A stretch of DNA of 64,000 nt from a virus. Position numbers and translations under genes: made by a program. Every line of letters begins with the position of its first letter. Position 1 is the first letter of the stretch. Shown here in pieces: positions 1 to 21,815 of the stretch. The notes under the pieces are model-generated. The model saw nothing but the letters and a program-made list of their open reading frames with translations, searched no databases and was not told the DNA's origin. The stretch covers positions 1-64,000 of the IMG/VR virus record IMGVR_UViG_3300031552_000001, one strand, 5' to 3'.

Positions 1-81
1 CCCTACCAACCCGCGCGGTTGGGGGGTTAAAGGGGGGATGGGTAGTATGGTGATTTGTGCAAACTGCGCGGGTTGGTAGGG
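1..81. repeat. 16-bp perfect inverted repeat around a G-rich spacer
   Basis: CCCTACCAACCCGCGC (1-16) is the reverse complement of GCGCGGGTTGGTAGGG (66-81). Confidence 0.85.
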
Positions 82-123
82 TATAAGAGAGGTGGACAAA
101 TTACTCTATTTTAGGAGGCGCAT

Positions 124-855
124 ATGGGGCGCGAGGTTAGACGAGTTCCTTTAAGTTTCAATTGGCCGCTAGAGGTTGTGTGGGGAGGGTATTTGAATCC
201 GTATGACCGATGTAACGTGGAATGTCAGGCATGTAGGGGTAGCGGATTAGGCCCTGAGATGAGGCAGCTTCAAGACGACTGGTATGATTTAGCGAACACC
301 GGGCGGAAGTGGAGTGACAAACTTACACAAGACGAGGTTGATGCACTTGTTGAATACAATAGACTACGGATCTTTGACTCTAAAAGCAATAAGTGGGTAT
401 CGGTACCGCGTACAGCAGAAGAGGTCAACAAACTTAGCGGACTACACCACGATGCAATAAACATGTCTATTTGTTTAGAGACAAGAGCCAAGCGACTTGG
501 CATTTACAAAATGTGCGACAAATGCGGTGGCGAAGGGGTAATTTGGACGTCGGCCGAAGACAAGGCAAAATACGAAAGCGGGAAAGCGTCAGACCCGCCG
601 GTTGGAGAGGGATGGCAGCTTTGGGAGACTGTAAGTGAGGGGTCTCCGATTACTCCAGTATTTGCGACCTCAGAAGAGCTTATTGACTACATGACAAAGC
701 CAGGGCCCGCAGGGAGGAGAAAGCCATGGGCAACTGGGTATTCTCGAGAAGAGGCTGAGGCTTTAGTGAAAGACGGGTGGTGTCCATCATTCACGGCTAC
801 CAAAGGAAAGGTCTACAATGGCGCAGAGGGAATGGTAGCTGCCGACAAGAAATAG
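124..855 (+). CDS. hypothetical phage protein with two DnaJ-type CxxCxGxG zinc-finger motifs
   Basis: 243-aa ORF with AGGAGG SD; motifs CQACRGSG and CDKCGGEG. Confidence 0.75.
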   Translation: MGREVRRVPLSFNWPLEVVWGGYLNPYDRCNVECQACRGSGLGPEMRQLQDDWYDLANTGRKWSDKLTQDEVDALVEYNRLRIFDSKSNKWVSVPRTAEEVNKLSGLHHDAINMSICLETRAKRLGIYKMCDKCGGEGVIWTSAEDKAKYESGKASDPPVGEGWQLWETVSEGSPITPVFATSEELIDYMTKPGPAGRRKPWATGYSREEAEALVKDGWCPSFTATKGKVYNGAEGMVAADKK

Positions 856-1807: not shown

Positions 1808-1896
1808 AGGGAGCTTTAGCTTAGGAATGCCAAGAGAGGGTGTTCACATCAAGTACTCGTAATTTGTGTAATGTCTATTGGACTGGAGGTTGCCTG

Positions 1897-2619
1897 ATGA
1901 CGAATAAGCCAGATTGCTACAAGTGTAAACACCGAAGAGGTACTCAATGGGGCCATCACTCATCGTGCGTTAACGGCAAAGCGTATGTGAAGGGTAACGC
2001 GCATGGTATACGCAACGGCTGGTTTTTATGGCCGATCAACTTTGACCCAGTTTGGCTTGATTCGTGTGATGGGTTCGATCTCGCCGACGCCAGCGAGAGC
2101 GTTCCGACAACGAAAGAGAAAAGAAAAGCGAAACGCAATGACAACAGACTGAGGAGCGATAAGAAAGAGCGCTCACGATGCGGACTGCGAATTAAAAGCA
2201 CCCATAAGCGAAATACCGAAGGCGATTTGTCTAAGGAGGTGGACAATGGCGGTCCTGTGAATCGCACTGAAGAGGAACTGTCACTGGGACAGTATTTAGG
2301 TTCCATACGCATCGCTAGGAACCTAACTTTACGCGCGGTAGAAAGGGCTACTCAGCGAGAGGTTTCTAATGCCTATCTCAGCCAACTTGAGCATGGCTTC
2401 ATTAAGAAGCCCTCACCTAACATCCTCTACAGCCTTGCAGAGGTCTACGAGGTGCCGTACGAGACGCTTATGGAGAAAGCGGGCTACCTAACTCGAAAGG
2501 CAGAACAGAAGTGTGAGCAGAAGCGTAAGTCTATACTTGCACTCGACAATACGTCCCTGACTCGAGAGGAAGAGGAAAAGCTACTTCTTTACCTAGCCTT
2601 CCTACGTTTCCGGAAGTAG
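1897..2619 (+). CDS. XRE-family HTH regulator, fused in frame to a small Cys/His N-terminal domain (possible independent start at GTG 2257)
   Basis: LGQYLGSIRIARNLTLRAVE...SNAYLSQLEHG...PSPNILYSLAEVYEV is a typical Cro/CI-type HTH; GGAGGT SD before 1897. Confidence 0.85.
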   Translation: MTNKPDCYKCKHRRGTQWGHHSSCVNGKAYVKGNAHGIRNGWFLWPINFDPVWLDSCDGFDLADASESVPTTKEKRKAKRNDNRLRSDKKERSRCGLRIKSTHKRNTEGDLSKEVDNGGPVNRTEEELSLGQYLGSIRIARNLTLRAVERATQREVSNAYLSQLEHGFIKKPSPNILYSLAEVYEVPYETLMEKAGYLTRKAEQKCEQKRKSILALDNTSLTREEEEKLLLYLAFLRFRK

Positions 2620-2626
2620 GGGATCA

Positions 2627-3612
2627 ATCTTTAGAGCACTAAGAATGAGTGCTTACCTGACTGTCATGTACATTTGAGGTGTTAAACAAGTGCACCTACA
2701 CAAACCGCAAAACTTAGAGTGCTAGTTTAGAGCACTCGCATATCTCGCCAAAAGTTAGAACTTAGGGTGCCAGTTAAGAGCACTCGCAAGGCGCTCAATC
2801 ATAGGGGCTTTGCTCCTACACACCACAAAACGACGCACATACCTTTCGGTAATTGAAATAAGAGCTCTGACCGCAGGTAATCTTTAGGGCGTTAAGAAAG
2901 AACGCTTACACAACGTGAGTTATGACAATAGTAGGCCTCAAAGAGACACAAATGAAAGGAACTTAGAGTGCTAGTTAAGAACACTCGCCAGGTGACGAAA
3001 TCTAATGTTAGGTGCGTCAATCAAGAGCGCGCACGTCCTGCAGGTGATCGTCTTTGGGGCACTAAATAAGAGCGCCCACAAAAGAAGGCCGGCCTATAGT
3101 CTGCGTTTTCAGAAGCTTATGGTTCATCTTTGGAGTGTTAAGTGAGGGCACTCACAAGAGGTGCATCGGTTATTCTTTGGGGGGTTAAGTAAGGGCCTCC
3201 ACTTCGCATCTTGAAGACTAACTTTGGGAAGCTACGTACGAGTTTCCACACCACACCATCGAAATGCTAAGAAATAGCACTCACGTTTCATAGTAATTAA
3301 ATAGGATAAACCGGCGCGAACGACATTTGAAGAGGCAATAAAGGCCTCTTACCCGTAGCAAAGGCCCTGTTTGCAGAACAGCAACAAAGAGTTCTGACCC
3401 ATTCTGGGTCTGTGGGCCCATATAAAGAATTGAGAACAGTAGTAATATTTGAAGGGCCGAAATAAGGGTTCTTATACGACAACTCGAATTGTGTTTGGAG
3501 TGTTAAACAAGAGCACTCACAGCTTGCGTACGACTTGTATTTGGAGTGCTAAATAAGAGCACTCACAAGACGTAAAAGTTAGAACTTAGAGTACCAGTTT
3601 AGAGCGCTCGCA
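2627..3612 (+). ncRNA. array of about 18 degenerate hairpin units (consensus YHTTTG-GAGTGCT-AANNAAG-AGCACTC-AC), candidate structured ncRNA
   Basis: No long ORF; stems start at 2634, 2677, 2717, 2765, 2887, 2966, 3012, 3057, 3133, 3180, 3227, 3262, 3330, 3374, 3452, 3498, 3544, 3589; substitutions mostly keep pairing via G.U on the + strand. Confidence 0.75.
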
Positions 3613-3687
3613 CGGAAAAGCATTCACACGGAGCTCGATCACGATAAAGGAACTTCGCTCATAGAGACTTAGAAAAAGGAGAAGAGT

Positions 3688-4188
3688 GTGGAATTCGAAC
3701 TTTTAAAAGCGAAAAGCCGCCCGCCGGACACTACTGGGAGGTATTTCATTGGAGAGAAGTGCGCCTACTTTTCAAATGGAGTCGTATGGCTGAACTGCCT
3801 AATAGACTACGTGGACTCCGACAACGAACTGGTTATTCAAATAAACGGAGAACGGCCGCATCCGCAACATTGGCTATCTTATGTATTAGAGGACTGTTCA
3901 CTAGAGGAGCTGGCAGAATTTGAGGGTATAGGAGAGCAGTTCGAGTGGATGATGCGTAATGGAGTTGTTCCGTACCAAGCCTTTTTGTTGAAGCTGGAGT
4001 TTTATGCAGGCCCCAATGACGATGGCTGGGAAGTGACCTATAGCATAAAAGATAGAGAGCCTATAAGCGATAGCGAAGCGTCTAAAGCCATACTGGAGCT
4101 TCTCCTAGACAGAACGAGGGCCCTATGGGCCGACAGAAGTGCCGTCGTCGACATCTTCATGGCCGACTGCGGGGTAATTATACAGTAG
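3688..4188 (+). CDS. hypothetical protein
   Basis: 166-aa ORF with AGGAG SD. Confidence 0.65.
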   Translation: MEFELLKAKSRPPDTTGRYFIGEKCAYFSNGVVWLNCLIDYVDSDNELVIQINGERPHPQHWLSYVLEDCSLEELAEFEGIGEQFEWMMRNGVVPYQAFLLKLEFYAGPNDDGWEVTYSIKDREPISDSEASKAILELLLDRTRALWADRSAVVDIFMADCGVIIQ

Positions 4189-4285
4189 GGTTAAGGTATT
4201 AAACCTCAAGGCACAACCCCTTCAGTCCTTAGATAAATAGTAACAAGACGCTAGGTACCTTTTAACGTGCCGGAAAGGGGGATGT

Positions 4286-4498
4286 ATGAAAAACGCTGAT
4301 GAGATGAAGGAACTGTTGATGAGGTTAGGCGCCTCTTCTGTCTTCCTTACTAATACAAGTATGCCAACAGCAGCAAAAACTGTAGGTTTATTATGCTGGT
4401 TAAGGAGAACAAGAGAGAACAACGACACTAAAGAGCTAAGGCGCCAATTGCTATTCCTTCACATAACTGGGGGTTTTGACTACGAGGAGAGAAAGTGA
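4286..4498 (+). CDS. hypothetical protein
   Basis: 70-aa ORF, GGGGG SD, GTGA overlap with next gene. Confidence 0.5.
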   Translation: MKNADEMKELLMRLGASSVFLTNTSMPTAAKTVGLLCWLRRTRENNDTKELRRQLLFLHITGGFDYEERK

Positions 4499-5202
4499 AG
4501 CGAAAAAACACGTACCTCACGGTGGATTTAGACTACTGGGATGTTGCAAGGAGTCCATGTGCCAGGGGTGTAGTTAAGAGGGTGCTCGATTTGAACATCC
4601 CTACTTCTCTATTCTTAGACCATCACTTGGTGCTTCGTGATTTTAGTGGAAGAAGCGCCGAGTTTTCAAAACTTATTAACGTAGATCAACACGATGACCT
4701 GGCCGGAGATACGGCAGATCCACTGAATGAGGCGAATTGGGTTAATTATGTTCCCTTTCGCAAAAACGCGGTCTACGAATGGCGCTTTCCAAGGGAAGAG
4801 TTTGCATGCTGTGACGGACATGACGGAGGCTTTACGTGGTACTTGAATAGGAGATTTAGGGGGGCGTATAGCAGGGCTTTTCATCGGGATCATCGCTTAT
4901 CCGTTTGTGGGTGGAAGGAGATTAGACGCGTAGAAGGGCTTAGTAGGATTAACTACACGAAAATTGCTAAGGCGTCGTTCGTTTTGAGCCCCGCTTATGT
5001 GTCAGTAGAGAAGATACGACCCGCCTTGATGCTACTTGCTGAAGCTAAAGGCGACGTGACATGCTCGAAATACGTAAAGTCCGCTCTCAATCGTTTATTG
5101 AACGGGAGTCCAACACTATTTAAGCGCAGCATGTTATCTTACAGAAAAAGAGCTGACCCTAGTTGCAAGTGCGGCAGAGGGCAAAACTGGGCTAGTCAGT
5201 AG
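4495..5202 (+). CDS. UPF0489-like / arginase-deacetylase-fold putative metallohydrolase
   Basis: Motifs TVDLDYW, DHH, INVDQHDD, LNEANWV. Confidence 0.55.
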   Translation: MKRKNTYLTVDLDYWDVARSPCARGVVKRVLDLNIPTSLFLDHHLVLRDFSGRSAEFSKLINVDQHDDLAGDTADPLNEANWVNYVPFRKNAVYEWRFPREEFACCDGHDGGFTWYLNRRFRGAYSRAFHRDHRLSVCGWKEIRRVEGLSRINYTKIAKASFVLSPAYVSVEKIRPALMLLAEAKGDVTCSKYVKSALNRLLNGSPTLFKRSMLSYRKRADPSCKCGRGQNWASQ

Positions 5203-5267
5203 GAGTGTTGGCGGGACTATCTAAGAGTTCCGACGTGTTTCCCATGAGAACGAAATAGGAGAGGAGT

Positions 5268-5474
5268 ATGGAATTCAAGGATGACGATGAGAAGGTGCTG
5301 AAAAACATCGAAAAGGAAATCAAGGGCGCTATAGCGCGCATCCTTACAAAACATGGGGATGCAGGGGCGCACTGGCAAGTGGAGGCTCTTCCAGAAAAGA
5401 TGGCTAGGGCTTCAATGTACATTTTGCGTGTTACCTCTGATGCCGTGGACGATGCAAAGAACAGCAGGCTATAA
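5268..5474 (+). CDS. hypothetical protein
   Basis: 68-aa ORF with GAGGAG SD. Confidence 0.6.
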   Translation: MEFKDDDEKVLKNIEKEIKGAIARILTKHGDAGAHWQVEALPEKMARASMYILRVTSDAVDDAKNSRL

Positions 5475-5499
5475 GAGGTTTGTTGAAAGGAGCGGTTTC

Positions 5500-5871
5500 A
5501 TGCTTGAAACGATCTTTTGTCTGCTATTCGGGTGGCATTGCCCGTCTGGGCCCGTGCTAGAAGCTTCAGACCCTACTGTGAACTCTGGGATCTATCAAGA
5601 CGAAGCAGGGCTTTACTGCTTTGTGGCGGATGGGGAAACAGTTGGGTGCTTTGCCTGCACGCTAACTACAGGGCACAGCAGGGAAGAATGTGCTTACGCA
5701 ATGGCTGAAATGGCCAATAAAGCTGGAATGGTGGCTAGTGTGTGCATAAGACGCAAACAGAAACCTGCGCGCGCGATCTCTGGTAACTGTAAGTGCTCCA
5801 ACGGGAAAGAAGAGTGCGTAGAAGTACACGTAATAAACGCTGTTGTCCAGAAGTTGCGTTTCGAGAAGTAA
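5500..5871 (+). CDS. hypothetical Cys-rich protein
   Basis: In-frame ATG of ORF 5353-5871 after AAGGAG. Confidence 0.55.
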   Translation: MLETIFCLLFGWHCPSGPVLEASDPTVNSGIYQDEAGLYCFVADGETVGCFACTLTTGHSREECAYAMAEMANKAGMVASVCIRRKQKPARAISGNCKCSNGKEECVEVHVINAVVQKLRFEK

Positions 5872-5882
5872 AGGAGACGATT

Positions 5883-6221
5883 ATGGGAATAAACGTAGAC
5901 TCTACACGAGAGAATCAAACTGATACGCATTTATACGTTTGCTCAGAGTGCGGCTGCCCGGAAGTGGAAGAGAGCGTGTGGGTGGATATAAACACAGGTA
6001 AGGAAACTGAGGAAGACTCGCCTTTAGGTTATTACTGGTGCCCTAATTGTGAGGCAAATGTAAAAAGAGTGTGCTTGGTTAATACAAAAACTGGGGAATG
6101 CCTAGACCATGAAGGCCACAACGTTAAGCCCAACTTTAACTGGAAGCAAAGCAATGAAAAAGAATCCCGGCCCGAGGAAGGTGAAGCAGCTTGCGAGAAA
6201 CATCGCAGCGTGTTGGGTTGA
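5883..6221 (+). CDS. small zinc-ribbon protein
   Basis: AAGGAG SD; CSECG...YWCPNCE. Confidence 0.6.
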   Translation: MGINVDSTRENQTDTHLYVCSECGCPEVEESVWVDINTGKETEEDSPLGYYWCPNCEANVKRVCLVNTKTGECLDHEGHNVKPNFNWKQSNEKESRPEEGEAACEKHRSVLG

Positions 6222-6415
6222 GTAGGCCCTAGATGGTGGAGGCTTGGAGGACTCTCTCGCCGCAAGAGGATTTGATGAAGAGGAGATAGGGCTACAGGTA
6301 GAGGAGGAGTTGAAGCGTCTCATTGAACGTATGACCTGCGGGAGTCAACGACAGAGAAGAAGGCAGTGAGCGCCGTAAGAGAAGCTCCAATGTGGAAACA
6401 TGAAATGAGGCACGT

Positions 6416-6820
6416 ATGAAAAAGCCAACAACGCACGTTGTTGCGACGGGTATTATTGTCCTTGCGTACATCGCATTTGTTTTCGTTATCTCGATACAAC
6501 TCGACACAATTACCGACCAGCTGGGAAAGCTTCAGCCTAGCATCTATGCGACAAATGGTAGAGCTCAATGGAAGCCTATTGAACCCATACCGGATACCAG
6601 TAATTTTAACAAAATGTACTCCGATTTTTACTACATCGACGCAGGTCGTGTGGTAATGAAGCTGCGAAGTCTGAACGAGGGAAAACCGGGTAAGGTAGTC
6701 GAGATTCGGCGAAGCGATGACGTTCTTTTAGGGTACGTGGTGATGTTTGAAGACGGGACGAGTGTGCTCATGGAAAGCTTTGATCACAGGTACTGGCAGG
6801 ACAGCAAGAGTAGTAACTAG
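6416..6820 (+). CDS. N-terminally membrane-anchored hypothetical protein
   Basis: Hydrophobic VVATGIIVLAYIAFVFVISI; GAGG SD. Confidence 0.6.
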   Translation: MKKPTTHVVATGIIVLAYIAFVFVISIQLDTITDQLGKLQPSIYATNGRAQWKPIEPIPDTSNFNKMYSDFYYIDAGRVVMKLRSLNEGKPGKVVEIRRSDDVLLGYVVMFEDGTSVLMESFDHRYWQDSKSSN

Positions 6821-6912
6821 AGGTATCGCCAAAAGTAGATAATCAATGAGGCGTTTCAGCCTCAAAACATCACCAATAACTTTTACACTTCACGCTCTCA
6901 AGGAGAGGTAGT

Positions 6913-7311
6913 ATGCGTGTGGCTCGTATGAAATTATCTCGCGTTGATAAAGATATGTTCAGACAGTTGTATTCCCTGAACAAGCGCCGCTACGGCGAGA
7001 TGCGAGATATGCTGATTAAAGAAAGAACAAATAAAACGGCTTATGTGTATCTGATTTTTGACGAGAAGGACAAGCGAAGGGTAATTGCTTGGGCTATTAG
7101 TGCGTGCAAACACCAGCGCTCTTGTCCAGTAGGTATGTTTTGGGTTCGTCGCTCGCATCGTCGTCAAGGATTCGGGAAAAAACTACTGACCGCAATCGAT
7201 CTAGATTCTAAACGTAGATGCCGTAAATGGTACTACTACGACCATGACTACCGATCGTGTGAGTTTTTTTCACACACGTCGAGGGGCAAGAGCATAGACA
7301 CTCGGAGGTGA
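6913..7311 (+). CDS. GNAT-family acetyltransferase
   Basis: Acetyl-CoA binding motif A: FWVRRSHRRQGFGKKLL. Confidence 0.7.
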   Translation: MRVARMKLSRVDKDMFRQLYSLNKRRYGEMRDMLIKERTNKTAYVYLIFDEKDKRRVIAWAISACKHQRSCPVGMFWVRRSHRRQGFGKKLLTAIDLDSKRRCRKWYYYDHDYRSCEFFSHTSRGKSIDTRR

Positions 7312-7317
7312 ATCCTG

Positions 7318-7776
7318 ATGAGCACTACGCCCGAAAAAAGAAAGTTTGAGGTTGGTGATGTCGTTGCGAAGTTTGAGTACAACTGGGAGCTTGTTATCAG
7401 AAAGGTCGTCAAATCTTTTAAGAGGTACGTGGTGCTTTCTGACGGGTCAAAATACTCGCACGGCGGCCATGAATGCCACAGCGGCTATATAAGTTCGTAC
7501 ATTACTATAGCATCGCCAGAGCACCTCGAGGCGTTCAGGAAAAAGCTTAAATGGGGGAAGATAGAAAAGAAATTCAACGAATTGAAAGGACGAAGAGGCG
7601 AAATGGAAATGGGCGTCCTTAATTCTTTGCTCCAAACTTTAGAGAATATTTCTAACCAGGTTGCCGCACAGGGCGGCAGGTGGGGTCAGCGTCGAAAAAC
7701 GCATATACATGGAAGCGGCACTGGCCCCACTTCACACAACAGGAGCCAAAGGAACAAAAAACATGGCACAGCATGA
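7318..7776 (+). CDS. hypothetical protein
   Basis: 152-aa ORF, GGAGGT SD. Confidence 0.55.
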   Translation: MSTTPEKRKFEVGDVVAKFEYNWELVIRKVVKSFKRYVVLSDGSKYSHGGHECHSGYISSYITIASPEHLEAFRKKLKWGKIEKKFNELKGRRGEMEMGVLNSLLQTLENISNQVAAQGGRWGQRRKTHIHGSGTGPTSHNRSQRNKKHGTA

Positions 7777-8077
7777 ACTGAAGCTATGGCCTGCGCCATT
7801 TGATGCCGTTGATAGAAATGAGAAGCGGTTCGAATATCGCAGAGATGATAGAGGCTTTGAGGTCGGTGATGTTCTCTTATTGCGTTGTTGGGATCCAGCA
7901 GCCAGTGTCTACACAGGACGAACTCTAAAGAGGCGCGTGACCTATATTGCTCGCGGGCCCATGTTCGATATCCCATTAGGCTACTGTATTATGTCAATTG
8001 AGCCGGAGGAAGAATGGCTAATTTTGATGAGGAACGATTCCCGAAGTGGGGGAAGTAAAGAGCAAATGGAAAAGTAA
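7763..8077 (+). CDS. ASCH/DUF3850-like (PUA fold) protein
   Basis: HELKLWPAPFDAV...KRFEYRRDDRGFEVGDVLLLRCW. Confidence 0.8.
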   Translation: MAQHELKLWPAPFDAVDRNEKRFEYRRDDRGFEVGDVLLLRCWDPAASVYTGRTLKRRVTYIARGPMFDIPLGYCIMSIEPEEEWLILMRNDSRSGGSKEQMEK

Positions 8078-8105
8078 AAACCCAACTGTAAGGAGCAAGG
8101 AAATC

Positions 8106-8306
8106 ATGACTGCTGAAAAGATTATCAAGATTCGATGCGATATACACAAAACTAACAAGTGCTATAGTTATATAGAAGTTGACTCAGAGGAGGTGTATGA
8201 GGCCCGGCAAATCGCAGCTAAAGAAGGGTGGAAGCACGACGGTGAGTATAGAGATGCGTGTCCCGAGTGCGTGGAGTTTTTGAGAGGGGTAAAGGTTTGG
8301 TGGTAG
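8106..8306 (+). CDS. small zinc-binding protein
   Basis: RCD...C and DACPEC motifs; AAGGA SD. Confidence 0.5.
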   Translation: MTAEKIIKIRCDIHKTNKCYSYIEVDSEEVYEARQIAAKEGWKHDGEYRDACPECVEFLRGVKVWW

Positions 8307-8351
8307 GCGCAGTATGAACTCATAAACACGGCTATAAGGAACAAAGAAACC

Positions 8352-8633
8352 ATGACAGAACAAAACCAAAACGAAGAGTGCGCCGAGGCGACCACTGTGT
8401 CTTTCATAACCGCTAAAGAGGCAAGGAGAAGGTCACTAGAAAGCATCAGGAAAGATATAGCAACTATGATAGACGAGGCGATAGACGAGCGCGACTATAA
8501 CCCAGAAATAGTTATCCCTAACGTATTTGTGGCTGAGATAACAAGTGCCCTTGAGTCGCCTGCACTTGGATATTCTGTAAAAGTAACTCCGACTGACGAT
8601 GAAAGCAGCATTCTTAGCATACGCTGGTGGTAA
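8352..8633 (+). CDS. hypothetical protein
   Basis: 93-aa ORF ending LGYSV...LSIRWW. Confidence 0.55.
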   Translation: MTEQNQNEECAEATTVSFITAKEARRRSLESIRKDIATMIDEAIDERDYNPEIVIPNVFVAEITSALESPALGYSVKVTPTDDESSILSIRWW

Positions 8634-8824
8634 CTATTTGCCTAACAGTCACCGTATAGAATTACAGCACTGTAACTGTTCTGCGAGGTTCCTCAATAAT
8701 GAGGGCCTTGCAGAGCTATTAAAGCCCCGACAATTCGGACGCCACGTGGGCGTCGGGCGCACACGCATAATGCGTGACCAAGTCCGATCAACACGGGCAA
8801 AAGACCCGCGAAGGAGAAATCATT

Positions 8825-9817
8825 ATGTTGGTACACGTACACGTAGATCATGCAGAAGCAATGAAGGCCGGTAAAGTTAGTGCTGGATACTTCGGGGTTA
8901 CGCTCACCGAAAGCGACATAGCACAACTCTCGATCGATGAAAGAGAAGAGCTGGCGAAATCTGAAAACATCGGCATATCAGATCCACCGCATCACGCGAT
9001 CGGGAAGGCGGTAAAAATAGGGATGTTTGTCTACCAAGACATTCCGATCCCAGATTCATCGATATGGTCGATCAAGAAATCACTCCGCTACAGGATCGAG
9101 CTAAGAAATAAGCTCGAGCAAGAAGAAAAAGAAGACCAATTAAAGGTAAAGGTCCAGCACGAAAAACGGTGCGCTGACTCTCTGGATTTCGCGAAGAAGT
9201 TTCTCGCTGCGTCGATTGGCGAGCAAATGTCTAGAACGTACTTCGAAGACGACGCTGCGAGTATTAGAGATGGCAAGATTTTGATTCGCGACAGTGATTG
9301 CTCGGTGGATCTTCTCCCCGACGACATCCGAGACGAATACACGGCCGCGCTCGACGAAACCATAGCGCTGGTCGCAAAGAGGACAGAAGAGCGAGCTAGG
9401 AAGTACACCGAAAGAAAGATTGCGCTGGAAAATGCAGAGAGAGAAGCTAAGGAAAAATACAACGCTGAACGGGCCGCATGGATCGCGGATCACGGGAGCA
9501 AACGGCTAAAGATGTTAGCTGCAGAAGGTATCCGACACAATGCGACGTACATCGAGGAGCGCATGGCCATCGAGCGACCAGGGTGGGAGCGATATGTTGA
9601 CATCTGTGGGGTGCACAAAGAGATTCGTGACGCGACGGAGGAGCAGCTAGACGCACTCACACAGGCTCGCGTTACCGATCCCCTTGCATATCTCTGCTGG
9701 ATTGCAGATGGCGGCCATCTTGAAGGATGCGTCCATAACACAAAGTGTGAAGAATTCATTCCAGGGCCAGCTCTTGCTTCCAACTTCCTCAAAGACATGA
9801 TCATCAAACGGATCTGA
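8825..9817 (+). CDS. hypothetical coiled-coil protein
   Basis: Long ORF (from 8774); AAGGAG SD before ATG 8825. Confidence 0.65.
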   Translation: MLVHVHVDHAEAMKAGKVSAGYFGVTLTESDIAQLSIDEREELAKSENIGISDPPHHAIGKAVKIGMFVYQDIPIPDSSIWSIKKSLRYRIELRNKLEQEEKEDQLKVKVQHEKRCADSLDFAKKFLAASIGEQMSRTYFEDDAASIRDGKILIRDSDCSVDLLPDDIRDEYTAALDETIALVAKRTEERARKYTERKIALENAEREAKEKYNAERAAWIADHGSKRLKMLAAEGIRHNATYIEERMAIERPGWERYVDICGVHKEIRDATEEQLDALTQARVTDPLAYLCWIADGGHLEGCVHNTKCEEFIPGPALASNFLKDMIIKRI

Positions 9818-9965
9818 ACACTCCCATCAAGGGACTCAGCCACCAGACGATACAGTTCTGACAATTACCTCTATGGAAGTGCCATAAGAGTTATGTAGAA
9901 CTGCGATTTTATACATTGGCAGGTGTCATTAAGACGCCTGACGAAGTCAAACCAGGAGTAGGGCT

Positions 9966-10325
9966 GTGGACAACAAGGAAATGAGAGCATTCGTTAACAG
10001 CGTCTTGTCTTGTTTTTCTGAGGAAGAGCTTGAGGCCGCTATGAAGGAGACTGACGACGAAAAGAGGTTAGATTTTTTCGTCAAGGGAGTAAACGCGTGG
10101 GTCACTAAACGTCTACAGGCGCTATTTCCTTGGGTAGAGCGCGTTGAAGTAGATAAGGTTTCCGGTGCCATAACAGTAGAGCACTCTTATCCAGAAGGGG
10201 TGAATATATCCTCTTATGTACGAGAGATTCTAGGAGAAAAACTACCGCAGGGCATACCCGTAGATATACGAGACGTAAGAGTGGCATCGTCCCACTTGAG
10301 CGAAAAAGTTGAGGAGGTTCCATGA
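9966..10325 (+). CDS. hypothetical protein, translationally coupled to the Cas12m-like gene
   Basis: AGGAG SD; ATGA overlap at 10322-10325. Confidence 0.6.
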   Translation: MDNKEMRAFVNSVLSCFSEEELEAAMKETDDEKRLDFFVKGVNAWVTKRLQALFPWVERVEVDKVSGAITVEHSYPEGVNISSYVREILGEKLPQGIPVDIRDVRVASSHLSEKVEEVP

Positions 10326-11818
10326 AAAGGAAGACCAGCTCTTTACCTAGCCGGACATATCGGTACCATGTGCGCTTGGACCGAAATGATGAAGCTGTAT
10401 TCGACCGGATAGGTGCCCAATGCAAGGAGTACTACGCTGCGTTGGTGAACATAGAGAACCAAAGAAGAGCCGCTACAGAAGAGTTCCTCATCCTCAAGTA
10501 CCCGACCTTTGCTTCTTTGAGGGAGGAAATGAGCGAGTTAGAGAAAAGAGTCAAGGAAAAGGGAGTAAGAAAAGCCCTTTTCGAAGTAGGGAAGTCTTTC
10601 TCCAAAATGCTAAAAGAGCTGGTGGCCAAAGAAGCGGAGAGTCTGAAGAAGTTCACTGCGGAAGCGGTTAGACAGAAGAAGATTATAAGGGCTAGGCTTT
10701 CTGGAGAAGGACTACCCTGGGGCTCGTATAGCAAAGTAGAAATGGCTTTTTTCGCTGCGTGTAGGAAAGGCGGAGCATTAACGTGTCGCGAGAAGGAAAC
10801 GGGAGAGTCTATTGCTGTTCAAATTCAATGTACCAAACCATGCACGGTAGACGGGCTACGGTCTGACAGAAGAATACAGATTTCTACGCCGCCAACTTCC
10901 GTTTGGAGTCTTAGCTGGGGAGAAAGGAAAAGAGCAGCAAGGACAGTAGGTAAAATAAGAATAGGAACACAACGACCAGGTAGAGAGCCTGTGTGGTTTC
11001 ATTTCGCGGTTACCTACCACAGACCTTTACCTGAAGACGCCACCTTAAAGTGGGCGTGGATAGGGAGATCTCCGAGGCATGGAAGAAGCACCTATCGGCG
11101 CTGTGTAGATAATAAAGAACGCTGGCGTAAAAGATACGAGTACTACCTTTACTTAACAGTAGAGTCTTCAGCGTTCATTTCTCCACTCAGAGCCCCCACA
11201 GGAAAAACAGCGGCAATAGACGTAGACGTAGAGGTAGAGAGCCATAAGGACGGCCGCCTATCCATAGGGGAGCTTACAGATAGTAATGAAAGAAGAGAGT
11301 CGATCTTCTTCAGTGAGCACCTCCTGAATAGATTTCAGAAGTGTGATGAGTTGCAGTCCATTCGGGACAAAAACCACAATAGACTTGTAGAAGATCTACG
11401 AGAAGTCGAAGAACTGCTCACAGCAGGGTTCAGAAAGTACCTACTGGGAGAAGAACATAGAATAAGCCATCTTCATCACCTAATAACCTATGAAACTTTG
11501 GAGAATAAGGAGCTTTCTGAGAAGCTGCACAAGTGGGCAAAACAAGACCGCCATTTGAACGCATGGAAGTCTGAACAACGGGCTAAGACCCTAAGACAGA
11601 GAAGAGAAAAATGGCAGTTGCTGGCTATCGAGTTGGCAGACTACTACGACGAGATAACTATAAGCGCTCCCGCCTCACTGACCGTAAGAGGGCACTGGGA
11701 TGGTAACTTTCAAAAGAAGTGTGCCGCTGCTGGAGAGTTTATAGACGTTCTTTCCTACCAAGCGTCGAAGAGAGGCTGCAAGATAGTAAAGGTGAAAAAG
11801 AATGTCACTGAAGGGTAA
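10322..11818 (+). CDS. Cas12m (type V-M/V-U1)/TnpB-like RNA-guided DNA-binding protein, predicted nuclease-dead, lacking the C-terminal Zn finger and RuvC-III
   Basis: Colinear motifs recalled from Cas12m: YYAALVNIENQRR, LPWGSYSKV, SIAVQIQ, PVWFHFAVTYHRPLPEDA, RuvC-I AAIDVD, DELQSIRD, WAKQDRHL...RAKTLRQRREKW, RuvC-II region ITISA without Glu, AAAGEF. Confidence 0.7.
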   Translation: MKRKTSSLPSRTYRYHVRLDRNDEAVFDRIGAQCKEYYAALVNIENQRRAATEEFLILKYPTFASLREEMSELEKRVKEKGVRKALFEVGKSFSKMLKELVAKEAESLKKFTAEAVRQKKIIRARLSGEGLPWGSYSKVEMAFFAACRKGGALTCREKETGESIAVQIQCTKPCTVDGLRSDRRIQISTPPTSVWSLSWGERKRAARTVGKIRIGTQRPGREPVWFHFAVTYHRPLPEDATLKWAWIGRSPRHGRSTYRRCVDNKERWRKRYEYYLYLTVESSAFISPLRAPTGKTAAIDVDVEVESHKDGRLSIGELTDSNERRESIFFSEHLLNRFQKCDELQSIRDKNHNRLVEDLREVEELLTAGFRKYLLGEEHRISHLHHLITYETLENKELSEKLHKWAKQDRHLNAWKSEQRAKTLRQRREKWQLLAIELADYYDEITISAPASLTVRGHWDGNFQKKCAAAGEFIDVLSYQASKRGCKIVKVKKNVTEG

Positions 11819-12092
11819 ACTACAATGTTGGTGGAAGAGAAGTCACGTAATAACAGAAGATATGACCACACAATCGCCGGTTCTATGCAAACGATGTGGG
11901 GTGAAGATTTATTACAAAAAGGAAGTGGTGCACCTGTTGCTTAAAGGAAAGCAATCAGCATGTGGCCTCACTACGGACGCTCTTCTTTCATGGCCTAAAG
12001 GGCATTGCTGGGTCGGCAAGTCTCAATGGGGGTATACTGAAGGATGCCTGCAATGTCCAAAGTGTGAAGAAGTTTACCGTAGTTCTAAATGA
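11802..12092 (+). CDS. small Zn-finger protein; possibly the detached C-terminal Zn-finger module of the Cas12m-like protein
   Basis: 17-nt overlap with the upstream gene in the +1 frame; CWWKRSH...SPVLCKRCGVKIY. Confidence 0.55.
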   Translation: MSLKGKLQCWWKRSHVITEDMTTQSPVLCKRCGVKIYYKKEVVHLLLKGKQSACGLTTDALLSWPKGHCWVGKSQWGYTEGCLQCPKCEEVYRSSK

Positions 12093-12108: not shown

Positions 12109-12147
12109 AGGGGACTATATTAAACTCTACCTTTAATATAGTCCCCT
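12109..12147. terminator. 16-bp perfect hairpin after the Cas12m-like operon (terminator or RNA scaffold)
   Basis: AGGGGACTATATTAAA-CTCTACC-TTTAATATAGTCCCCT followed by TCTTT. Confidence 0.55.
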
Positions 12148-12233
12148 TCTTTGCGCCATACTAACCCTACGTTTAATAAGAGGGCGAAAGTTTGTGCACC
12201 TAAACACTAGACAAGTATTTCAGGAGGTGGAAA

Positions 12234-21509: not shown

Positions 21510-21815
21510 ATGCCCAAGGACGAAGAAAGTATTCCCATCGAGATGACTGTAGATAATTTGGACACGCCCCAGGCGGCATCTACTTTAGCGGTACTTGCTG
21601 TCTTAGGCCTGAAAAAGTACGGGAGAGTTACTTTTGTAGTTCGGCCAGATCGAGGGGTAGCTTTTGCTAACCCGGCGCACGTAGACATTCACCCAGACGC
21701 AATAGAAGACTTAGCAGACCGGCCGCTTAGATTTGTTAGGCCCCTACTTGGAGATGGAAAACCGAAGTTTGTAGCTTGGAAAGACGGGGTGTTGTGGGAA
21801 GTAGAAATCGAATAG
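21510..21815 (+). CDS. hypothetical protein
   Basis: GAGGA SD, 101 aa. Confidence 0.55.
   Translation: MPKDEESIPIEMTVDNLDTPQAASTLAVLAVLGLKKYGRVTFVVRPDRGVAFANPAHVDIHPDAIEDLADRPLRFVRPLLGDGKPKFVAWKDGVLWEVEIE

What the first reader, a model, noticed from the sequence alone, without database searches (positions are those of the whole stretch)
9914..9942. Solitary copy of the array hairpin in the leader of the Cas12m-like operon
Seen: CATTGG-CAGGTGT-CATTAAG-ACGCCTG-AC has the array geometry (7-bp stem with one U.G, 7-nt loop ending AAG, G...A flanks, AC 3' end). It sits about 25 nt before the gene translationally coupled to the Cas12m-like ORF, 6.3 kb from the array. This is the only physical link I see between array and effector. 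Inference: a cis autoregulatory binding site or a single mini-guide (following sequence GAAGTCAAACCAGGAG), similar to Cas-autoregulating crRNA-like RNAs.
Basis: partly seen in the sequence, partly recalled or inferred. Interest (0 to 1): 0.75.

Follow-up and report, generated by a model that had tools for sequence, protein, structure and literature searches.

The report
Lone guide-RNA hairpin before phage Cas12m gene
A 28-base RNA hairpin just upstream of a phage's shortened Cas12m-like gene is very probably a diverged stray copy of the phage's own guide-RNA scaffold, placed where the bound protein would cover the ribosome-binding site; that suggests self-regulation, which has not been tested.

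Summary
The hairpin is real: 9915-9942, 7 bp with one U.G, loop ending AAG, G...A flanks, 3' AC, 23 nt before GTG 9966. Its likeness to the 2627-3612 array units exceeds chance but is not overwhelming.

- Infernal model of 15 units: 11.9 bits, E 0.79 per window.
- Model of 20 other members: best non-member hit, 16.2 bits, E 0.17.
- Ungapped profile: third-best non-array hit in the 192-kb genome, about 0.1 expected by chance.

It departs from the units at three conserved places: C instead of the invariant loop A13, G4 instead of T, and a C-G first pair.

It is not the only link between array and effector. Better solitary copies lie at 1820 and 2149, and a similar one at 5207. All lie in a 20.6-kb island that a complete relative lacks.

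The 498-aa protein is Cas12m by sequence and fold. It keeps the His-Arg pair that reads C(-1) and G:A in Cas12m2, and the hairpin has those bases.

The downstream "guide" has no target in the phage, so a CreR-type circuit is unsupported. My best reading (about 0.4) is a cis binding or processing site that occludes the SD.

This scan had already described the array and effector on this genome.

The parts
9915..9942 (+). Solitary 28-nt hairpin: ATTGG flank, 7-bp stem with one U.G, loop CATTAAG, then AC. A diverged copy of the array's Cas12m-type scaffold unit.
9943..9965 (+). Segment that would be the 'guide' if the hairpin acts as a crRNA handle. It holds the SD AGGAG (9954-9958) of the downstream gene.
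   Evidence: No target in the phage genome or nearby.
9966..10325 (+). Orphan 119-aa ORF (GTG start), overlapping the effector ATG as ATGA.
   Evidence: No family or look-alike found.
10322..11818 (+). 498-aa Cas12m-like protein. It lacks the TNB zinc ribbon and RuvC-III, has Ser at the RuvC-II Glu position, and keeps His233-Arg234.
11802..12092 (+). +1-frame 96-aa ORF with two CxxC pairs 52 residues apart. Possibly a split-off, degenerate zinc-finger remnant.
   Evidence: no significant similarity.
12110..12153 (+). 15-bp hairpin followed by TTCTTTG: terminator-like end of the operon.
   Evidence: Read.
9853..9912 (+). Long imperfect hairpin (-17.2 kcal/mol, z -3.1) followed by GAUUUUAU, directly before the solitary hairpin. 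Possibly a leaky terminator or a processing site.
2627..3612 (+). Array of 17 covarying 28-nt units separated mostly by 15-20 nt.
1820..1847 (+). Solitary unit in the leader of the XRE-like gene, 49 nt before ATG 1897.
   Evidence: 23.9 bits, E 1.5e-4.
2149..2176 (+). Solitary unit inside ORF 1897-2619.
   Evidence: 21.1 bits, E 1.1e-3.
5207..5234 (+). Solitary unit 5 nt after the stop of ORF 4495-5202 and 33 nt before ATG 5268. It shares the TTGG flank and C-G first pair with the 9915 hairpin.
   Evidence: 15.3 bits, E 0.068.

Best explanation
**What it is.** The hairpin is a diverged solitary copy of the 28-nt Cas12m-type crRNA scaffold that makes up the phage's hairpin array. It is transcribed as part of the leader of the operon that encodes the truncated, nuclease-dead Cas12m-like protein.

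**How it would work.** The protein recognises the scaffold through its WED-domain His-Arg pair and may cut just upstream of it, as Cas12m does in pre-crRNA. It then holds the next 17 nt or so as a pseudo-guide. That segment contains the SD of the small ORF, whose stop overlaps the effector's start. A bound protein would therefore hinder ribosome loading and lower its own synthesis when free protein exceeds array-derived RNA.

**Shown.**
- The hairpin exists and has above-chance likeness to the family.
- The protein is Cas12m by sequence and fold.
- The reading residues and the bases they read are conserved.
- The spacing to the SD is as stated.

**Inferred.** Binding, cutting, occlusion and feedback.
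For: - **The family is an RNA structure.** 93% of stem cells pair, and all seven pairs show changes on both sides. A 3-bp pseudoknot between the 5' flank and the loop also covaries.
- **The unit matches the Cas12m scaffold.** Cas12m2 has G(-23):A(-2), C(-1), loop G(-9) and A(-11), an ordered scaffold of about 29 nt and a 17-bp heteroduplex (PMC10442227). A canonical viral Cas12m repeat (L008) ends in the same geometry: CTTG, 7 bp, a 7-nt loop starting with A, 7 bp, AC.
- **The candidate keeps the key bases.** It has G5, A27, C28, A17 and G19, and two of the three pseudoknot pairs.
- **Statistics.**
- **The effector.** Foldseek's top four hits are Cas12m2 and GoCas12m, at E about 1e-19 to 1e-17. 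The profile aligns the family's invariant HRP motif with Cas12m2 H269/R270, and one search shows these are H233/R234 in the window protein.
- **Shared island.** Hairpins, array and effector all lie in island 855-21510. A complete relative (MCP 85% identical) lacks the island, the effector and the hairpins.
- **Precedent.** TnpB binds and processes its own mRNA (PMC10278001; title and abstract opening only, paper not read).
Against: - Infernal E-values are only 0.79 (R1) and 0.17 (R2) per window.
- The hairpin breaks the invariant T3-A13 pair: C13 pairs with G19 instead, closing the loop to 5 nt. It also has G at position 4 and a C-G first pair, which no array unit has.
- The other leader copies end 33 and 49 nt before their start codons, so SD occlusion is not a shared property.
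- The effector gene has its own strong SD (GAGGAGG), so coupling to the small ORF may matter little.
- No solitary repeat lies upstream of cas12m in four viral loci that carry canonical arrays.
- No second genome carries this island, so conservation cannot be tested.
- The protein lacks its zinc finger and may be inactive.
Confidence: 0.4

Rival explanations
1. It is an extra stand-alone guide RNA: scaffold plus the following 17-20 nt. It would act in trans on host or competitor DNA, or as a CreR-like repressor of a promoter. Its place in the effector leader would then be incidental or serve co-expression.
For: In type V systems a single upstream repeat is enough to make a crRNA. Solitary copies also sit before two other genes. 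CreR elements of this kind are known upstream of cas12a (10.1101/2023.03.10.532045).
Against: There is no match in the phage genome with at most 2 mismatches over 16 nt. Within 2.5 kb either side there is no partial match above chance. The would-be guide is constrained by carrying an SD. The host is unknown, so host targets were not searched.
Confidence: 0.2
2. It is a decaying relic. The island once held a longer or scattered array, genes were inserted between units, and this unit is drifting without function.
For: It deviates at three otherwise conserved positions. Copies are scattered at 1820, 2149 (inside an ORF) and 5207. Part of the array itself is degenerate: units with 8- and 9-nt loops and a half-unit near 3262.
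Against: The stem is perfect and more stable than that of the four other family units folded (-13.1 against -7 to -10.2 kcal/mol). The bases Cas12m reads specifically are all intact. Decay would be expected to break pairing first.
Confidence: 0.15
3. It is unrelated to the array: a chance hairpin, or an ordinary mRNA element such as a 5' stabiliser or part of the terminator-like structure just upstream.
For: R1 gives E 0.79 per window, with chance-level hits of similar score elsewhere. The predicted fold is 8 bp with a 5-nt loop, not 7/7. A terminator-like hairpin lies directly upstream.
Against: It is the third-best non-array hit genome-wide, with about 0.1 expected. Outside the island nothing on either strand scores above 12.7 bits. 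All strict-geometry hits fall on one strand within 8 kb. It is not followed by a U run, so it is not itself a terminator.
Confidence: 0.2

Closest known systems
CreR / crRNA-like Cas-regulating RNAs (types I-B, I-E, V-A; 10.1101/2023.03.10.532045)
   Same: A degenerate repeat that forms the cognate stem-loop sits just upstream of the effector gene. The expected outcome is autorepression that senses how much crRNA competes for the protein.
   Different: CreR acts in trans on promoter DNA through a PAM-flanked partial match. No such match exists here. The proposed action here is on the effector's own mRNA. The system is V-M-like and phage-borne.
Type V-M CRISPR-Cas12m (MmCas12m2, GoCas12m; PMC10442227, PMC11013384)
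   Same: The effector fold and the His-Arg scaffold readers match. The scaffold geometry also matches: G:A pair, terminal C, loop A and G, pseudoknot. Spacers of about 17 nt fit the 17-bp heteroduplex. The mode is DNA binding without cutting.
   Different: The protein lacks the TNB zinc finger and RuvC-III. The repeats are 28 nt and differ from one another, rather than being 36 nt and identical. The array lies 6.7 kb away. Solitary units sit in gene leaders.
TnpB processing of its own mRNA into omega RNA (PMC10278001)
   Same: An ancestor-type protein of the same superfamily binds a structured element within its own transcript (title and abstract opening only; paper not read).
   Different: The TnpB element overlaps the 3' end of the ORF and supplies the functional guide. 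Here the element is in the 5' leader, and the guide function is doubtful.
RNA anti-CRISPRs (Racr; solitary repeat units in phages; PMC10651486)
   Same: Phage-encoded solitary repeat mimics that bind a Cas protein.
   Different: Racrs mimic the host's repeats in order to disable host Cas proteins. Here a cognate effector is encoded 380 nt downstream in the same phage. Host repeats are unknown.

Membership tests
28-nt hairpin family of the 2627-3612 array | 7-bp stem, 7-nt loop, on the + strand | tested here: met
   Seven pairs with one U.G. The fold adds a C13-G19 pair, giving 8 bp and a 5-nt loop.
28-nt hairpin family of the 2627-3612 array | Purine at position 5 opposite A or G at position 27; invariant C28; loop G19, with A17 in most units | tested here: met
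   The hairpin has G5, A27, C28, A17, A18 and G19.
28-nt hairpin family of the 2627-3612 array | Invariant T3-A13 pair of the 3-bp pseudoknot (columns 1-3 with 13-15); T at position 4; purine at the first stem position | tested here: not met
   It has C13, G4 and a C-G first pair. Pseudoknot pairs 1-15 and 2-14 are kept. The canonical L008 repeat also has a C-G first pair.
28-nt hairpin family of the 2627-3612 array | Model score clearly above background | tested here: inconclusive
   R1: 11.9 bits, E 0.79. R2: 16.2 bits, E 0.17, top non-member hit. Ungapped profile: 17.7 bits, about 0.1 expected per genome, rank 3.
CreR-type Cas-regulating crRNA-like RNA | Degenerate cognate repeat upstream of the effector gene | tested here: met
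CreR-type Cas-regulating crRNA-like RNA | Pseudo-spacer partly complementary to a PAM-flanked site in or beside the cas promoter | tested here: not met
   The best match within 2.5 kb either side is 13 of 20 with a longest run of 6. No genome-wide match has at most 2 mismatches over 16 nt. The promoter itself was not identified.
CreR-type Cas-regulating crRNA-like RNA | Effector-dependent repression, relieved by competing crRNAs | not testable with these tools
   Needs reporter assays.
Type V-M Cas12m effector | Cas12m sequence and fold, with WED His-Arg scaffold readers | tested here: met
   phmmer against 23vw_A gives E 7.6e-10. Foldseek against 8hhl, 8hio and 8pm4 gives E about 1e-19. The family's HR motif aligns with Cas12m2 H269/R270, and is H233/R234 in the window protein.
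Type V-M Cas12m effector | C-terminal TNB zinc ribbon and the third RuvC motif | tested here: not met
   The ORF ends before them. The next +1-frame ORF shows no significant TNB similarity.
Racr (phage solitary repeat that mimics host CRISPR repeats) | Likeness to the repeats of the host's own CRISPR system | not testable with these tools
   The host is unknown.

The most novel reading that the evidence does not exclude
The zinc-finger-less, nuclease-dead Cas12m derivative may no longer be mainly a DNA binder. It could instead be a hairpin-specific RNA-binding protein that cuts and/or translationally controls a small set of phage mRNAs carrying the scaffold in their leaders: the XRE-like gene at 1897, the gene at 5268, and its own operon at 9966. 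The 17-unit array would then act as a titrating sponge, a guide source, or both.
Probability: 0.12. Interest if true: 0.85.

Novelty: new variant of a known kind. Interest (0 to 1): 0.5.

Why it matters
I found no report for type V-M among the Cas12m papers I read, and I recall no phage-borne effector regulated this way.

If the hairpin is bound in cis, it would show a Cas12-family protein regulating translation by treating its own leader as a pseudo-guide. That is a step between TnpB's handling of its own mRNA and the trans-acting CreR circuits.

It would also give a simple handle for testing whether this unusual truncated protein binds the array units at all: a 28-nt RNA and one protein.

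If the hairpin is only a relic, it still documents how a fixed phage guide array breaks up among inserted genes.

Tried and rejected
- **Rho-independent terminator.** Rejected: no U run follows the hairpin, and the scan did not flag it.
- **DNA palindrome or operator for the neighbouring XRE-like protein.** Unlikely: G.U pairs and strict + strand bias point to RNA.
- **Self-targeting or CreR-type guide.** No match found.
- **Promoter in the leader.** No sigma-70 consensus. The phage's GGTATAAG-type motif, a lead from earlier notes that I rechecked, is absent. Only a weak GCCATAAG lies at 9881.
- **Comparative test.** This failed. The effector has no close relative in the 5.8-billion-protein search or in IMG/VR. 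Five related phage records lack both effector and hairpins.
- **Solitary repeats upstream of cas12m in other viral loci.** None found by Hamming search (47), and R1 found nothing there.
- **Small ORF.** No family, no homologue beside other cas12m genes, no Atlas look-alike.
- **Tools and searches that returned nothing.** A genome-contig scan with P0007 found nothing.

Full report
**Setting**

The window is the first 64 kb of a 192,137-bp virus record. It is a tailed phage with a major head protein, sheath-like protein and helicase. Positions 13-138 repeat at the contig's end.

The finding lies in a 148-nt gap between ORF 8774-9817 and a 119-aa ORF (GTG 9966). The stop of that ORF overlaps the ATG of a 498-aa ORF as ATGA.

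**The hairpin**

The sequence reads ATTGG, CAGGTGT, CATTAAG, ACGCCTG, AC at 9915-9942. It has seven pairs, one of them U.G.

It folds on its own at -13.1 kcal/mol (z -4.5). It is present in both the MFE and centroid folds of the whole leader.

The predicted fold adds a pair between the first and last loop bases, giving 8 bp and a 5-nt loop. No array unit I folded does this.

A longer hairpin (9853-9903, z -3.1) followed by a short U run precedes it directly. This may be a leaky terminator for the upstream gene.

**The family it is compared with**

The region 2627-3612 holds 17 units of 28 nt: a five-base 5' flank (mostly xTTTG or xCTTA), 7 bp, a 7-nt loop, 7 bp, then AC or GC. Most gaps between units are 15-20 nt.

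- In 15 gap-free units, 93% of stem cells pair, and every pair shows changes on both sides.
- I also found that columns 1-3 pair with loop columns 13-15. These are 89% paired, with A-U and C-G five times each at 1-15, and U-A ten times against C-G four times at 2-14. No shuffle out of 500 reached this, and the given register beats all slid registers. The four C-G units at 2-14 form a subfamily and may reflect a single event.

This matches the published Cas12m2 crRNA (PMC10442227):
- a non-canonical G(-23):A(-2) pair;
- a terminal C(-1) read by His269/Arg270;
- loop G(-9) and A(-11);
- a pseudoknot stacked on a stem;
- about 29 ordered scaffold nucleotides;
- a 17-bp guide-target duplex.

Cas12m homologues on IMG/VR contigs have ordinary 36-nt repeat arrays directly downstream, and all four consensus repeats end in AC. 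The L008 repeat ends in CTTG, 7 bp, a 7-nt loop starting with A, 7 bp, AC. It has the same GCT/AGC pseudoknot potential.

**The protein**

- The 498-aa product hits a solved Cas12m by sequence (E 7.6e-10).
- Its relatives are 550-655 aa, and nine of the ten carry the TNB zinc-ribbon domain.
- An AlphaFold model (pLDDT 78) has Cas12m2 and GoCas12m as its four best PDB matches, at E about 1e-19 to 1e-17. Cas12f and TnpB score about 1e-8.
- The family's invariant HRP motif (His233-Arg234 here) aligns with Cas12m2 His269-Arg270.
- The ORF stops before the zinc ribbon and RuvC-III. A Ser stands at the RuvC-II Glu position.
- The following +1-frame ORF has two CxxC pairs but no significant TNB similarity.

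**Is the hairpin a family member?**

It keeps G5, A27, C28, A17, A18 and G19, and two of the three pseudoknot pairs. It has C in place of the invariant A13, G in place of T4, and a C-G first pair.

| Test | Result |
|---|---|
| Infernal R1 (15 units) | 11.9 bits, E 0.79 per window |
| Two held-out true units with longer loops, under R1 | 12.8 and 13.7 bits |
| Infernal R2 (20 members, candidate excluded) | 16.2 bits, E 0.17, best non-member hit |
| Ungapped profile with pair terms | 17.7 bits; leave-one-out members score 17.2-40.2 |
| Rank among non-array sites, both strands | third in 14 of 16 pseudocount settings, second or fourth in the other two |
| Markov simulation, 24 M positions | about 0.1 hit of this score per genome |
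| Natural background, 1.35 M positions of related phages and Cas12m loci | one unique hit |
| Own genome outside the island | nothing above 12.7 bits |
| Strict geometry filter | 10 sites, all + strand, 1820-9942 |

I put membership at about 0.75-0.8.

**Not the only link**

- R1 finds stronger solitary units at 1820-1847, in the leader 49 nt before ATG 1897 of an XRE-like gene.
- It finds another at 2149-2176, inside that ORF.
- A unit at 5207-5234, 33 nt before ATG 5268, shares the TTGG flank and C-G first pair with the candidate.
- A complete relative (192,446 bp, MCP 85% identical) has the genes matching 124-855 and 21510-21815 only about 260 bp apart. The region 855-21510 is therefore an accessory island.
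- That relative has neither the effector nor the hairpins.

**Mechanism**

A CreR-type circuit needs a PAM-flanked partial target at the promoter. The 20 nt after the hairpin have no match above chance within 2.5 kb either side. No unit's guide matches the phage genome with fewer than 2 mismatches over 16 nt, and the counts fit chance.

What is special here is spacing. The SD lies 12-16 nt after the hairpin, inside the stretch the protein would hold as a guide.

I therefore favour a cis binding or processing site that limits translation of the small ORF and, through the overlap, of the effector.

Three points count against this:
- The effector has its own GAGGAGG SD.
- The other leader copies sit further from their start codons.
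- Four other viral cas12m loci have no upstream solitary repeat.

No promoter was recognised in the leader.

**Limits**

- No second genome carries this island, so conservation could not be tested.
- The host is unknown.
- Earlier notes of this scan had already read the array and the effector in the same way. I reached the same reading from my own calls.

Noticed in passing
window 2627-3612 (alignment A2 columns 1-3 with 13-15): The 5' flank of each array unit pairs with the first three loop bases, forming a 3-bp pseudoknot. Pairing is 89%, with A-U/C-G and U-A/C-G exchanges. The canonical Cas12m-type repeat in L008 has the same potential (GCT with AGC).
   Followed up: partly
window 855-21510: A 20.6-kb accessory island holds the array, all solitary hairpins and the Cas12m-like operon. 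In the complete relative G001 the flanking genes lie about 260 bp apart.
   Followed up: partly
window 9853-9912: A long imperfect hairpin (-17.2 kcal/mol, z -3.1) followed by GAUUUUAU lies directly before the solitary hairpin. It may be a leaky terminator or a processing site.
   Followed up: partly
window 2149-2176: A well-scoring scaffold unit lies inside the linker-coding part of ORF 1897-2619, which encodes a Cys-rich N-terminal part and a C-terminal HTH_3 domain. It reads LRSDKKERSR in frame.
   Followed up: no
L014:14454-15300: A viral Cas12m locus has a stretch of degenerate, irregularly spaced repeat copies ahead of its regular array, 4.6 kb from cas12m. This is a milder version of the degenerate array seen here.
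   Followed up: no
genome 154646-154670 and 191853-191881: R1 gives two further + strand hits outside the island, at 19.8 and 14.5 bits, both with other loop lengths. The first lies inside long ORFs on both strands. The second lies in an ORF-free stretch near the contig end.
   Followed up: no
window 13-138 and genome 192011-192137: A 126-nt identical overlap joins the two contig ends and includes a GGGTATAAG promoter-like box. The record is circularly closed or terminally redundant.
   Followed up: partly
window 11796-11818: The effector frame and the following CxxC ORF overlap by 17 nt in the +1 frame, near a GAAAAAG run. This could be a split gene, a frameshift or an assembly error.
   Followed up: partly
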